Shown: in pieces, positions 6,001 through 9,000 of the stretch
Position numbering within the stretch: position 1 is the first letter of the stretch
How the letters are laid out: the number at the start of each line of letters is the position of its first letter
Assembly (NCBI RefSeq): GCF_022846255.1
Contig: NZ_AP025682.1
Direction: 5' to 3' (one strand)
From: Escherichia coli
GTDB lineage: Bacteria > Pseudomonadota > Gammaproteobacteria > Enterobacterales > Enterobacteriaceae
DNA length: 64,000 bases
Position numbers: made by a program

Positions 6001-9000
6001 GCGTTACGCAAATAATCAACGCTGGTTTTATCCGGTACGTTGCAATTATTTTTTAGCAGAACCCGCTTCTAATATTGAAACGATTGAGAACAACGTAAAG
6101 CATACCGCTCCCAAACCGACCAGAACCCGCGAAGGAATAAAATACCCTATGTCGGTCTGCGCCATTTCCGCAAGAAACGATGCCAGGAAAAGGCAAAACA
6201 GGCAGGTGAAGACGGGAATCATCGGTATTCTGTTGGCTAACGAACAGGTACGTCTCCAGACCAGTGCCAGTAGCCAGACTTTTGAGAATATGCTGTAACA
6301 GATCATTCCGAGGCAAATGAGAATAATGCCGGGAGCCAGTCGGGCGCTTGCATCGGAGCTGACTAACACGTATATGCCCTGCAGCACCGTGATTGAGCCG
6401 AGAATAATAACCCAATAACACCACAGCCAGTGCTCTTTGGATGAGAACGTATTACGTGTTTGATGGACGATTGTGGCAACAAGACCAATTAGACAGGCAC
6501 AGATTGCGGTTAACCCAAGCAATACGTGACCGGCGACATAATGTGGAGTTATGTCGGCACTACGTAACAGCGTAATAGACCAAATGAAACCGAGCAGGGT
6601 GAGTAAAACGGGAACGGCAATGAGGCAATTACCGATTAATGACGAATAAGCCTGTACCGGTGTTCCATCGCTCTTGCTCCCTGCTGCGTTTTTGGGAATG
6701 AGCAGAAAGTGACCGGATGACGCTGCCACTGTCGATACACAGGCGGCAATCATACCAACGCCAAAAATAACATGGCCGGCAACAAACTCGTCTGCCATCA
6801 CATCATTGCCTGCTAACAGTGCCCAACCCCATATCATGGTGATAATTGACCCCGCATAGCCAATAATGGGGAACAATGTATTGTAAAACGTATTAACGCC
6901 GCGCGTGAGCTGCGAAATGATAATAAATGCGGTAGTGAATAATGCCAGGCATATGGCTGCCAGAGAAATCAGCACATGACCCGCGACGAAATACTCACTT
7001 TGCCCAGAACTTTCCAGCACAAAGCCACCTAACGCGATACAAATTAAGCCCATAATTAAAGGGATTAATTTGAAAAGCCACCCGATATATATGTTCACTT
7101 TAAACTCCTCAGGTATCCCTGCTAATATTGAAATGTGCATTAATGATAATTTCAGCCTGTTAATATAATGACGAGATATCATTAAAGACAAATGCATAGC
7201 ATAACTATAGCGGGATTTACTTTGCAGAGCGCTACTTTTCAGCGTTCAAAAGGCCATGGTAAATAAATATTTATCCTAAGATTAATTCTTATTCTCTTGT
7301 TTTTTTCAATTATCTTCCAGGGAGGGATTCTTTTTCATTATTTGGTAAAAGACCGGATGGTATCGGTGCTTAAAATCATCGAACATATAAGTATTATTGC
7401 TTTGTATCATCGTAAATATGTCTTTCAGACATGTGTCATTTATTTTGTTACTAACAAGTCAAAAATATCACGGGTTATTTATGAAAGTATTTCACAATAT
7501 ATTTAAGCACATCTCTTCAAACCATCAAGATAAGCATTCAGATAAAGTTAACAGTCATCAACACCATGGCAAGGTTGATAAAAAACATCGTTCAAAGATA
7601 GTTGAAATTGATAAGCTGGATAAACATTTGCAAATAGATAACGATTTTGGCCTGCATATCATCTATTTCCTGCAACATGGCTGCTGGAACGTAACTGAAC
7701 ATAGTTCTCAGATAGAAAAAATATGGTTTTACAATAGTGAGCCATCTATAGATATTAAAGAATATAATAGTTTCGCCGATAATACTACTGACACGTTTAT
7801 CTTTACAATTATACCAGACAATAACCATGTGATAAAATTATCGTCTCCCATTACCGTTACGATTGAGCGTAAGGACGGTTATTATTTTATTAATTTCTCC
7901 GGGGATAAATCAGACATAATTTATAAAGTTGATGGGTTTTCTATCATAGAGAGAAATTTCTTTACTCTTCTTAGTGGTAATTTCAAACCTGACTGGCGTT
8001 GGGCTGTCTCTAAAGAGACGTTTACTAAGGAAAAGTTTGATAGCTATGTTGAATCTGTTTTTTCAAAAATAGACTTTTATAAACAGTGTGGTGTGATTAA
8101 CCCACAAAATGCCAACACGGCTTATTTTGGCGATACAGATGGAAGAGTAGGCGCTGTACTTTATGCATTGCTCGTTTCAGGGCATATAGGCATCAGGGAA
8201 AAGGGGTGGAGTTTATTATGTGATTTATTAAAACACGAAGACATGGCTTCATTCGCATATGAAAATAAAAAATTGAAAAAACTCTTCACTTTATTAGATA
8301 AGAGAGACATGTTCTTGAATGAGTTGCATCAACATGTTTTTTTAAAAGGCGATGCGATTACCCCTTGTATCTTCCTTGGGGATCATACAGGCGATAGATT
8401 TAGTACTATTTTTGGTGATAAATATATCCTTACTTTGCTAAATTCTATGCGAAATATGGAGGGTAATAAAGATAGTCGTATAAATAAAAATGTCGTCGTT
8501 CTGGCTGGAAATCATGAAATCAATTTTAATGGTAACTATAGTGCCCGACTAGCAAATCATAAACTCTCTTCCGGTGATACATATAACTTAATTAAAACGC
8601 TCGATGTTTGTAATTATGACTCAGAAACGAAAGTTTTAACCAGTCATCACGGAATAATAAGAAATGAAGAAAATGAATGTTATTGTCTAGGTGCTTTGCA
8701 GGTTCCATTTAATCAGATGAAAGACCCAATTGATCCTGAGGAATTAGCAAATATATTTAATAAAAAACATAAACAACACATGGATGATCGTCTTATCCAT
8801 CTAATTAGAAGCAATGCTATAGCATCCACACCTGTATATGACAATTATTTTAATAACACTACTGCTTTCAGACCAAAACCTGAAGATATCTTCAAATGTG
8901 GACAGACGCTCAAAAAAAGTAAACAGAAATATGGCCATTATGGATTAGGGGTAGATCAGCATCAAAAAATTGATAATTATATCATGGGGCTAAATTCCTG

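What the first reader, a model, noticed from the sequence alone, without database searches (positions are those of the whole stretch)
6046..7098. YhiM is built from four internal repeats of a helix motif
The motif (Y/F)(F/V)AGHV(L/I)(I/L/F)(S/G)(L/V) plus a degenerate fourth copy recurs at regular intervals, suggesting an internally duplicated membrane protein with pseudo-symmetry. The gene uses a GTG start with a strong GAGGAG RBS.
Basis: seen in the sequence. Interest (0 to 1): 0.25.

Follow-up and report, generated by a model that had tools for sequence, protein, structure and literature searches.

The report
YhiM: five hairpin repeats, not four
The known E. coli inner-membrane protein YhiM is built from five (not four) ancient tandem copies of a two-helix hairpin, predicted to form a ring with five inner and five outer helices; the ring had already been noted from AlphaFold models, so this is a tidy refinement of a known protein rather than a discovery.

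Summary
The gene at 6046-7098 (minus strand) is yhiM (350 aa, Pfam DUF2776, E 5e-158). The GTG start and GAGGAG Shine-Dalgarno are correct and already published.

The motif is real. VAGHV occurs three times (4 of 20,000 shuffles reach this). The repeat number is five, and the unit is a ~67-aa two-helix hairpin (outer helix A, short periplasmic loop, motif-bearing helix B).

A profile self-comparison gives exactly four off-diagonals, at shifts of 1-4 units (prob 94-99.5%). All ten unit pairs score 31-72, against 8-16 for reversed profiles. Synonymous sites are not shared between copies, so the duplication is ancient.

Conservation patterns suggest the motif helices (even TMs) form the inner ring, the opposite of SLAC1. 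Each carries a near-invariant Cys, and a His/His/His/x/Arg collar sits at the periplasmic end.

Homologues recur next to urease, arginine-deiminase and glutamate-decarboxylase genes. That fits a small-cation or amine pore used in acid stress, which remains an inference.

The parts
6046..7098 (-). yhiM coding sequence (350 codons plus stop), DUF2776 family
   Evidence: PF10951, E 5.3e-158, residues 1-347 of a 348-position profile. RefSeq annotates it 'yhiM: DUF2776 domain-containing protein'.
7096..7098 (-). GTG start codon
   Evidence: Sequence. PMC6604978 states a GTG start and a 350-aa product.
7105..7110 (-). Shine-Dalgarno GAGGAG, 6 nt (TTTAAA) before the GTG
   Evidence: Read directly.
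7120..7120 (-). Published transcription start (an A, 22 nt upstream of the GTG). It excludes the in-frame ATG at 7197.
   Evidence: PMC6604978 abstract. The base at 7120 is T on the + strand.
6901..7098 (-). Repeat unit R1 (aa 1-66): helix A1 (aa 3-30), periplasmic loop, helix B1 (aa 34-65)
6697..6900 (-). Repeat unit R2 (aa 67-134): A2 (70-96), B2 (102-130)
6649..6693 (-). 15-aa cytoplasmic insertion (aa 136-150) between R2 and R3, the only break in the 67-aa register
   Evidence: It has the lowest pLDDT block (85) and is non-helical in the model.
6451..6663 (-). Repeat unit R3 (aa 146-216): A3 (153-178), B3 (184-214)
6250..6450 (-). Repeat unit R4 (aa 217-283): A4 (220-247), B4 (254-280).
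6049..6249 (-). Repeat unit R5 (aa 284-350): A5 (293-313), B5 (317-348)
6949..6993 (-). Motif copy 1, YFVAGHVLISLAAIC (aa 36-50)
6739..6789 (-). Motif copy 2, EFVAGHVIFGVGMIAAC (aa 104-120). Its Cys lies 2 residues out of register.
6499..6543 (-). Motif copy 3, HYVAGHVLLGLTAIC (aa 186-200)
6298..6342 (-). Motif copy 4 (degenerate), RLAPGIILICLGMIC (aa 253-267)
6100..6144 (-). Motif copy 5 (degenerate), YFIPSRVLVGLGAVC (aa 319-333)
5993..6029 (-). Intrinsic terminator hairpin (13-bp stem, then UUUUUCUU), 16 nt after the stop
   Evidence: dG -22.7 kcal/mol, z -4.5, 0 of 200 shuffles as stable. The consensus scan missed it because the loop is longer than 8 nt. PMC6604978 mentions inverted repeats here.

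Best explanation
yhiM encodes a 10-TM inner-membrane protein made of five tandem copies of a ~67-residue two-helix hairpin. Each copy consists of helix A, a short acidic periplasmic loop, and helix B. Helix B begins with the (Y/F)xAGHV(L)xxGLxA(I/V)C motif.

Shown here:
- The five-fold sequence repeat.
- Its antiquity: the copies do not share synonymous sites.
- The N-in/C-in topology.
- A high-confidence AF2 model of ten long helices. Its best structural matches are closed single-chain helical barrels and the five-hairpin TehA/SLAC1 fold.

Inferred:
- The gene arose by quintuplication of a 2-TM hairpin, conceivably from a protein that once worked as a homopentamer.
- The five motif-bearing B helices (even TMs, running from periplasm to cytoplasm) form the inner parallel ring, and the A helices form the lipid-facing outer ring.
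- The motif's small residues (Gly at -1, +4 and +6) allow tight inner-ring packing.
- One near-invariant Cys per B helix sits at mid-membrane.
- A His/His/His/x/Arg collar sits at the periplasmic end, under a vestibule rich in Asp and Glu.

Most likely function (about 0.5): a pore or facilitator along the pseudo-five-fold axis for small cations or amines (GABA, NH4+, possibly Cu or Ni), used by acid-stress systems.
For: Repeat:
- VAGHV occurs three times; 4 of 20,000 shuffles reach this.
- All ten unit-versus-unit profile comparisons give prob 87.5-98.5 and scores of 31-72 over 46-62 columns.
- Controls: reversed profiles score 8-16, and column permutations that preserve the TM/loop blocks reach at most 27 (z 7-25).
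- The unbiased self-hhalign gives exactly four off-diagonals.
- The five units align without gaps in a 67-aa register.

Hairpin unit: B-B scores are 24-48 and A-A scores 7-32, against A-B of at most 10.9.

Ancient origin: third-codon positions agree at only 1-4 of 4-10 identical residues between copies, and there are no long DNA repeats.

Fold:
- AF2 gives pLDDT 95.4 and pTM 0.94, with 10 helices.
- PMC11288890 independently describes the YhiM AF2 model as 'based on five central helices'.

B helices as the inner ring:
- B helices have lower entropy (1.67-1.83, against 1.93-2.25 for A1-A4; A5 is 1.67) and a weak variability moment (0.10-0.14, against 0.22-0.32).
- On A helices the variable face coincides with the hydrophobic face (-64 to +22 degrees), as expected for lipid exposure.
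- On B helices the variable face points away from the hydrophobic face (95-180 degrees apart).

Topology: K+R count is 12.1 on the cytoplasmic side against 2.8 on the periplasmic side.

Conserved chemistry in 75 non-redundant homologues:
- Cys in each B helix: 72-75 of 75.
- Gly at -1: 68-75 of 75.
- His at positions 41, 109 and 191: 51, 59 and 68 of 75.
- Position 324: Arg 55, His 18.

Function:
- The yhiM mutant exports about 50% less GABA, and overexpression increases export (PMC6604978).
- The mutant accumulates less Cu (PMC11005409).
- Homologues lie inside a urease operon, ureABC-DUF2776-ureEFGD-UT.
- One is divergent from a urease operon in Crenobacter.
- Others lie upstream of arcA-arcB(-arcC).
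- Others lie directly after gadB, or between gadC and gadB in C. perfringens (PMC6604978).
Against: - No coordinates were available, so the inner/outer assignment and any open pore rest on sequence statistics.
- A circular-permutation test of the layer order was inconclusive.
- In TehA/SLAC1 the odd helices are the inner ones (PMC11260165). YhiM's odd (A) helices carry conserved prolines, as I noticed by eye in the E. coli TehA sequence. That resemblance argues the other way.
- Five-helix designed barrels have very narrow lumens (PMC11288890), so the Gly/Ala/Cys residues may serve packing only.
- The Cys of R2 is 2 residues out of register.
- His is not universal: P0016 has none of the three.
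- Gene neighbourhoods are mostly unconserved, with 117 Pfam families among 134 immediate neighbours.
- The Cu phenotype was attributed by its authors to CpxAR activation, an indirect route.
Confidence: 0.8

Rival explanations
1. The similarity between segments is only the generic resemblance of hydrophobic TM hairpins (composition and hydropathy pattern), not descent from a common unit.
For: TM segments often give inflated alignment scores. The A helices of some pairs (A2-A5 at 7.1, A4-A5 at 6.8) are at background. Single-sequence scores for R2-R4 and R2-R5 are weak (z 1.9 and 1.6).
Against: Controls that keep composition and the TM/loop/TM architecture score far lower: reversed profiles 8-16 and block permutations at most 27, against 31-72 observed. 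A-versus-B comparisons within the same protein stay at or below 10.9. The register is identical in all pairs. The same Gly, Gly, Cys and Pro positions are conserved in each unit across 75 homologues. The self-comparison gives exactly the four shifts expected.
Confidence: 0.03
2. There are four repeats: a single-helix motif recurring four times.
For: Only three strict and one loose regex matches are visible by eye.
Against: R4 (aa 217-283) matches R1, R2, R3 and R5 with prob 93-97.5. A shift of four units is detected. There are ten helices, which is five hairpins. The motif-free A helices belong to the unit.
Confidence: 0.02
3. YhiM is a divergent member of the SLAC1/TehA (TDT) superfamily, sharing a common ancestor and the same topology, with the odd-numbered helices lining an anion pore.
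Against: There is no PF03595 hit at E<=1 or E<=10. Profile-profile probability is 0.6%, though the TehA profile was shallow. The YhiM profile finds no TehA or SLAC1 chain in the PDB at E<=10. Foldseek does not list them among its 50 best, and nothing reaches E<=0.001. Conservation and moment analysis puts the even helices inside. The periplasmic mouth is acidic, which suits cations better than anions.
Confidence: 0.15
4. The barrel is closed and YhiM does not transport anything. It acts as a membrane scaffold or stress sensor (for example by modulating CpxA), and the conserved small residues and Cys serve only helix packing.
For: Loss of YhiM activates CpxAR (PMC11005409). Designed five-helix barrels are too narrow to bind dye. 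Small-residue motifs are classic packing motifs. Phenotypes are pleiotropic and strain-dependent.
Against: Overexpression raises GABA export, and deletion halves it. Cys is near-invariant where Ala or Ser would pack equally well. The more variable face of the B helices is the more polar one. The gene sits inside a urease operon and next to ADI and GAD genes, positions usually held by transporters.
Confidence: 0.3
5. The pore is a transition-metal (Cu/Ni) conduit rather than an amine or ammonium path. The His collar and Cys ring would act as metal ligands.
For: The yhiM mutant holds less Cu and is more Cu-resistant. There are five near-invariant TM cysteines and 2-3 histidines plus Arg/His. The position inside a urease operon is one where Ni transporters are often found (own knowledge). 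A P-type cation ATPase lies directly upstream in three related homologues.
Against: The Cu effect was explained through Cpx by its authors. GAD and ADI neighbourhoods have no metal requirement. The neighbouring ATPases are P2-type (Cation_ATPase_C), not heavy-metal P1B. GABA export data exist.
Confidence: 0.2

Closest known systems
YhiM / DUF2776 (Pfam PF10951), E. coli P37630
   Same: It is this protein. The HMM match is full-length, the length (350 aa) is the same, and so are the GTG start, the monocistronic layout and the terminator. The published prediction is 10 TM helices with N-in/C-in topology.
   Different: Nothing differs at the gene level. The papers that could be searched describe no internal sequence repeat, no His collar and no Cys ring. 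In this strain an IS3 element and an accessory island replace the K-12 neighbour yhiN.
SLAC1 / TehA anion channels (TDT family, PF03595; PDB 3m71, 7wnq, 8gw6)
   Different: No sequence or profile similarity was found. Foldseek does not list TehA or SLAC1 among its 50 best hits. In SLAC1 the odd TMs line the pore, whereas in YhiM the even TMs appear to be inside (inference). YhiM keeps an obvious five-fold sequence repeat, has an acidic rather than anion-friendly mouth, and has no counterpart of the gating Phe identified. Its oligomeric state is unknown, whereas TehA is a trimer.
De novo single-chain parallel alpha-helical barrels (sc-CC-5/6/7/8, PDB 8qkd/8qag/8qai/8qah) and circular tandem-repeat toroids (6xr1)
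   Different: They are soluble designed proteins with no evolutionary relation. The number of inner helices is 5-8, and the five-helix design is left-handed and was not the one that retrieved YhiM.
UreI / AmiS acid-gated urea channel family (own knowledge; Strugatsky et al. 2013)
   Same: The channel protomer is built from a two-helix hairpin repeated around a central axis (three times). Periplasmic histidines take part in acid gating. The gene sits inside a urease operon, as one YhiM homologue does.
   Different: It has three hairpins and 6 TM helices, against five hairpins and 10 TM helices. The YhiM-containing urease operon already encodes a UT-type urea transporter.
Homopentameric 2-TM channels such as MscL and CorA (own knowledge)
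   Same: Five copies of a 2-TM hairpin surround an axial pore with N-in/C-in topology. This is a model for the presumed pre-fusion ancestor of YhiM. YhiM is reported to be needed at low osmolarity (title cited in PMC6604978).
   Different: They assemble from separate subunits. No sequence similarity was seen: there are no MscL or CorA Pfam hits for any unit at E<=10. In MscL the first helix lines the pore.

Membership tests
DUF2776 / YhiM (PF10951) | Full-length match to the Pfam HMM above the gathering score (26.1 bits) | tested here: met
   526.3 bits, E 5.3e-158, residues 1-347 on profile positions 1-347 of 348. Each of the five units alone also hits its own segment (81-115 bits).
DUF2776 / YhiM (PF10951) | Orthology with E. 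coli yhiM: same locus and RefSeq annotation | tested here: met
   4275 of 5426 complete E. coli genomes match at 80-99+% identity, annotated 'yhiM' and next to YhiJ/YhiL genes.
DUF2776 / YhiM (PF10951) | 10 TM helices, N-in/C-in | tested here: met
   The AF2 model has ten long helices. K+R count is 12.1 on the cytoplasmic side against 2.8 on the periplasmic side. This agrees with the prediction in PMC6604978.
SLAC1 / TehA (TDT, PF03595) | Sequence or profile match to the family | tested here: not met
   No PF03595 hit at E<=1 for the whole protein or E<=10 for the units. hhalign of the YhiM profile against a small TehA profile gives prob 0.6%. hmmsearch of the PDB finds no TehA or SLAC1 chain at E<=10.
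SLAC1 / TehA (TDT, PF03595) | [quoted passage not shown] | tested here: met
SLAC1 / TehA (TDT, PF03595) | Odd-numbered TM helices form the pore (PMC11260165) | tested here: inconclusive
SLAC1 / TehA (TDT, PF03595) | Conserved gating Phe in the pore; trimeric assembly | not testable with these tools
   This needs coordinates or experiment.
Internal-repeat (tandem hairpin) membrane protein | Significant off-diagonal signals in a profile self-comparison, in one register | tested here: met
   There are four off-diagonals (prob 99.5, 99.5, 96 and 94-95). All ten unit pairs are significant against two kinds of control.
UreI / AmiS | Sequence match to PF02293; six TM helices | tested here: not met
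   There is no such Pfam hit, and YhiM has 10 TM helices.

The most novel reading that the evidence does not exclude
DUF2776 is an independent, convergently evolved class of monomeric pseudo-pentameric channel. On this reading it was created by quintuplication of a 2-TM hairpin that once formed homopentamers. Its layer order is the reverse of SLAC1, with the even helices inside. A thiol ring and a His/Arg collar would form its filter. Its physiological role would be a release or uptake valve for NH4+, amines or metal ions that serves proton-consuming acid-resistance modules (urease, arginine deiminase, glutamate decarboxylase) across phyla.
Probability: 0.2. Interest if true: 0.65.

Novelty: already known. 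Interest (0 to 1): 0.35.

Why it matters
YhiM is a conserved E. coli protein of unknown mechanism, with reported roles in acid, heat and low-osmolarity tolerance, GABA export and copper stress.

Recognising a five-fold hairpin repeat, and the residues that recur once per repeat, turns a 'DUF' into a set of precise mutagenesis targets:
- five Cys: C50, C120, C200, C267, C333;
- the collar H41, H109, H191, R324;
- Gly at -1 and +4.

It also gives a testable pore model. YhiM is a rare natural example of a closed, single-chain parallel helical barrel, which interests protein designers. It still carries a readable record of its own duplication, unlike SLAC1/TehA.

The recurring placement of homologues next to urease, ADI and GAD genes is a new, cheap lead to the substrate.

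None of this changes the basic picture. The gene, its start site, its topology and the five-central-helix model were already public.

Tried and rejected
- NCBIfam has no model for the protein.
- The search for related loci with the 22-sequence alignment failed because no stretch was conserved enough. It was repeated with 7 sequences.
- The afdb50 fold library was unavailable.
- Foldseek against the PDB gave no hit at E<=0.001. It listed only designed barrels at TM about 0.46, followed by noise.
- hmmsearch of the PDB with the family profile returned only chance TM matches (PLPP1 E 0.004, SMR).
- Scanning each unit against Pfam at E<=10 gave only sub-threshold 2-TM hits (Phage_holin_5_2 E 0.035/0.079, DUF4079 E 0.0024). 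I rejected these as generic hairpin similarity.
- hhalign against TehA was negative, but my TehA profile was shallow (8 sequences, mostly above 80% identical), so this is a weak negative.
- The consensus terminator scan missed the real hairpin. Direct folding found it.
- The DNA repeat search found only 13-16 nt chance-level families, which rules out recent duplication or gene conversion.
- An unbiased neighbour census found no conserved operon partner. A systematic 'always with acid-resistance genes' claim is therefore rejected, and only a recurrent minority association stands.
- I did not search for free-standing single-hairpin relatives, because the hit lists are capped at the best 120-150 and would be filled by full-length family members.
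Full report
**What is at the coordinates**

The minus strand of 6046-7098 carries one ORF. 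From the GTG at 7098-7096 it encodes 350 residues. It matches Pfam DUF2776 end to end (526 bits, E 5e-158). NCBIfam has no model for it.

The 2-kb region is present in 4275 of 5426 complete E. coli genomes, always on the chromosome, and is annotated 'yhiM: DUF2776 domain-containing protein'.

The Shine-Dalgarno GAGGAG lies at 7110-7105, six nucleotides before the GTG. Tramonti et al. (PMC6604978) mapped the transcription start to an A located 22 nt upstream of this GTG, and described a 1.1-kb monocistronic transcript and a 350-aa product. That A is window position 7120. It excludes the in-frame ATG at 7197 that the ORF list offers.

Sixteen nucleotides after the stop there is a strong hairpin followed by a U-run (5993-6029, dG -22.7 kcal/mol, z -4.5). 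The + strand ORF at 5966-6298 is antisense to the gene and has nothing to support it.

**Is the motif real, and how many copies are there?**

The pentapeptide VAGHV occurs three times, which only 4 of 20,000 shuffles of the protein reach. A loosened pattern adds FIPSRVLVGL at aa 320. A pattern for the helix core, [VI][LI]x[SGC][LV]x[AM][IV][CA], finds five hits, at aa 42, 110, 192, 259 and 325.

Anchoring on the residue equivalent to His41 aligns five 67-residue segments without any gap:
- R1: aa 1-67
- R2: aa 69-135
- R3: aa 151-217
- R4: aa 218-284
- R5: aa 284-350

The only irregularity is a 15-residue cytoplasmic insertion at aa 136-150.

**Statistical tests of the repeat**

I collected homologues by an exhaustive HMMER search of 1.84 billion representatives. 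The family is small: 257 clusters at E<=1e-3. I aligned the full-length members and cut a 19-sequence alignment into five units.

- All ten unit-versus-unit hhalign comparisons are positive. Probabilities are 87.5-98.5%, scores are 31-72, and 46-62 columns align in one register.
- Reversing the target profile drops scores to 8-16.
- Permuting columns inside the TM and loop blocks, which keeps the hydropathy architecture, gives means of 10-14 and a maximum of 27 (z 7-25).
  - shift of one unit: 259 columns, prob 99.5
  - shift of two units: 190 columns, prob 99.5
  - shift of three units: 118 columns, prob 96
  - shift of four units: 50-58 columns, prob 94-95

That is the signature of five tandem copies.

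Splitting each unit into its first (A) and second (B) helix shows B-B scores of 24-48 and A-A scores of 7-32, while A-B never exceeds 10.9. The unit is therefore a two-helix hairpin, not a single helix.

At the DNA level the copies share no more third-codon positions than chance (1-4 of 4-10 identical residues), and there are no long direct repeats. The duplication is ancient, and the motif is maintained by selection on the protein.

**Structure**

AlphaFold2 with an 84-sequence alignment gives a very confident model (pLDDT 95.4, pTM 0.94). It has ten long helices that coincide with A1/B1 through A5/B5.

Foldseek finds nothing at E<=0.001. Its best hits are again the sc-CC barrels, at TM about 0.46.

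The resemblance of YhiM to such barrels is not new. Albanese et al. 2024 (PMC11288890) reported that their designed parallel barrels repeatedly retrieved the AlphaFold model of E. coli YhiM. They described that model as 'based on five central helices', with 'the most striking similarity' to their designs. Their hit tables also contain P44741, which I recognise as TehA, and P50537, which I recognise as Mae1 (both identifications are from my own knowledge).

**Relation to SLAC1/TehA**

I found no sequence relationship.
- There is no PF03595 hit for the protein or its units.
- No TehA or SLAC1 chain appears when the family profile is searched against the PDB at E<=10.
- hhalign between the YhiM profile and a TehA profile gives 0.6% probability. 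The TehA profile was shallow.

No solved structure of a DUF2776 member exists.

**Which helices are inside?**

The tools gave me no coordinates, so this is inference.

Across 19 homologues the B helices are more conserved (mean entropy 1.67-1.83, against 1.93-2.25 for A1-A4; A5 is 1.67). They also lack a strong variable face (100-degree moment 0.10-0.14, against 0.22-0.32).

On every A helix the variable face coincides with the hydrophobic face (angle -64 to +22 degrees), which is the pattern of lipid exposure. On every B helix the slightly more variable face points away from the hydrophobic face (95-180 degrees apart), as expected for a buried helix with one polar or lumenal side. Tryptophans are also concentrated on the A helices.

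I therefore place the five motif-bearing, even-numbered helices in the inner ring. That is the reverse of SLAC1.

A counter-indication is that YhiM's A helices carry conserved prolines (P13, P77, P163 and P295; 65-75 of 75). The odd, inner helices of TehA appear to do the same, on my reading of the sequence.

**Topology and conserved chemistry**

Lys+Arg counts (12.1 on the cytoplasmic side against 2.8 on the periplasmic side, family means) confirm the N-in/C-in topology. The short A-to-B loops are periplasmic and acidic. The motif therefore marks the periplasmic start of each inner helix.

In 75 non-redundant homologues drawn from 79 genomic loci plus distant representatives:

| Position | Conservation |
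|---|---|
| Gly before the His position | 68-75 of 75 in R1-R4 (Ala in R5) |
| Gly at +4 | 69-73 of 75 in R2-R5 |
| One Cys per B helix (C50, C120, C200, C267, C333) | 72-75 of 75 |
| His at positions 41, 109, 191 | 51, 59 and 68 of 75 |
| Position 324 | Arg 55, His 18 |
| Position 258 | variable (Cys, Phe, Tyr) |

The Cys of R2 is two residues out of register. Every sequence keeps at least one His, and 67 of 75 keep two or three. P0016 is one representative with none of the three.

**Function**

The published data are these:
- About 50% less GABA is exported by a yhiM mutant at pH 5, and more is exported on overexpression.
- Expression depends on GadE, GadX and RpoS.
- The C. perfringens homologue lies between gadC and gadB (PMC6604978).
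- A UPEC mutant accumulates less Cu, resists Cu better and activates CpxAR (PMC11005409).

I added genomic context for distant homologues.
- One gene lies inside a urease operon, ureA-ureB-ureC-DUF2776-ureE-ureF-ureG-ureD-UT, with gaps of 42 and 25 nt.
- In Crenobacter caeni the gene is divergent from a urease operon.
- Two homologues lie just upstream of arcA-arcB(-arcC). In one case this is a tandem pair of DUF2776 paralogues.
- Three members of that subfamily follow a P2-type cation ATPase.
- In Paraclostridium and [Eubacterium] tenue, gadB is immediately upstream on the same strand. An arcA lies near the Butyricimonas gene.

An unbiased census of 134 immediate neighbours from 73 non-Escherichia loci shows no conserved partner. 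There are 117 Pfam families, and the most frequent (7 members) is lineage-specific to a cluster of mostly Bacteroides loci. Voltage_CLC appears twice. The association with proton-consuming, ammonia- or amine-producing acid-resistance modules is therefore recurrent and spans phyla, but it holds for a minority of genomes.

The family is sparse and widely scattered, which suggests horizontal transfer. It appears in Proteobacteria, Actinomycetes, Clostridia, Bacteroidota and Desulfovibrionia, and in two MAGs labelled Methanomassiliicoccus. In total, 234 confirmed stretches were found among 100,044 species genomes with the two peptide patterns used.

**Best-supported mechanism**

Shown:
- Five homologous hairpins.
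- An ancient origin.
- N-in/C-in topology.
- A confident ten-helix model that resembles closed five-, six- and seven-fold barrels and SLAC1/TehA.

Inferred:
- The B helices form a parallel inner ring.
- The Gly-rich motif lets them pack closely at the periplasmic end.
- The conserved His/His/His/x/Arg collar and the five cysteines sit along the pseudo-five-fold axis, below an acidic vestibule.
- A small cationic solute passes along that axis. The candidates are GABA at acid pH, NH4+ or a metal ion.

I put about 0.9 on the five-hairpin barrel, about 0.8 on the even helices being inside, and about 0.5 on a real pore. The substrate is unresolved: amine or ammonium is somewhat more likely than metal. 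A closed scaffold or sensor role remains a serious rival, at about 0.3.

**Novelty and verdict**

The gene, its start, its topology and its phenotypes are published, and the five-central-helix model has been noted in print. What I could not find in the searchable literature is the five-fold sequence repeat, the once-per-repeat Cys/Gly/His pattern, the probable reversal of layer order relative to SLAC1, and the urease and ADI neighbourhoods.

It is a useful refinement of a known protein and a modestly interesting lead to its mechanism.

Noticed in passing
window 4437-5590 (+): An IS3-family insertion sequence (orfA HTH_Tnp_1 at 4437-4754; orfB rve at 4781-5590, with a GTG start) lies about 450 bp beyond the yhiM stop, where K-12 has yhiN. 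Whether the element is intact was not checked.
   Followed up: partly
window 497-4145: An accessory island lies left of the IS. It holds two small tyrosine recombinases (1942-2604 and 3594-4145, minus strand) flanking an AraC-type regulator (2734-3597, +), plus a CaiF/GrlA-like regulator (1111-1584, -) and a LuxR/GerE regulator (497-1114, -). The layout looks like an invertible-switch or regulatory module.
   Followed up: no
L002 (E. coli WWCOL-236) 1161-5728; window about 5659: The yhiM-yhiN gap is an insertion hotspot. The closest E. coli genomes carry the pcoABC..E copper-resistance cluster right beside yhiM. PMC8417528 documents a Tn7 pco/sil element inserting between yhiM and yhiN. Their homology to the window begins at about 5659. 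This is a curious coincidence with YhiM's reported copper phenotype.
   Followed up: partly
window 7099-7197 (-): An in-frame upstream ATG at 7197 would give a 383-aa product, but it lies upstream of the published transcription start (7120). The UPEC paper's N-terminal 'MXXXM motif' was not located. This window's protein reads ...LIMGLICIAL..., with no MXXXM there.
   Followed up: partly
window 7397-9070 (+): A divergent neighbour encodes a YhiJ/YhiL-family protein (DUF6860 + DUF4049, 557 aa by the ORF list, with a TTG start). Its function is unknown, and its true start was not checked.
   Followed up: no
L016 3331-11078 (also L017, L018): A metagenomic urease operon has a DUF2776 gene inserted between ureC and ureE, followed after ureD by a UT-family urea transporter and an unannotated 352-aa gene. 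Two CrcB genes lie downstream.
   Followed up: partly
L015 2287-11259: Two tandem DUF2776 paralogues (495 aa, with a long charged C-terminal tail, and 344 aa) lie between a P2-type cation ATPase and arcA-arcB. The same ATPase-DUF2776 order occurs in L005 and L006.
   Followed up: partly
L085, L086: DUF2776 homologues (48% identity) occur on large contigs labelled as uncultured Methanomassiliicoccus (archaeal) MAGs. This could be horizontal transfer or a binning error.
   Followed up: no
L009-L011 4603-5088; L012 7287-8630: In some lineages the neighbours are ion or osmotic genes: mscL about 1 kb upstream of P0016, and trkH directly downstream of P0005. This is too sporadic to interpret.
   Followed up: no
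window 5924-5937: A second small hairpin with T-runs on both sides (a bidirectional terminator-like site) lies further downstream of yhiM.
   Followed up: no
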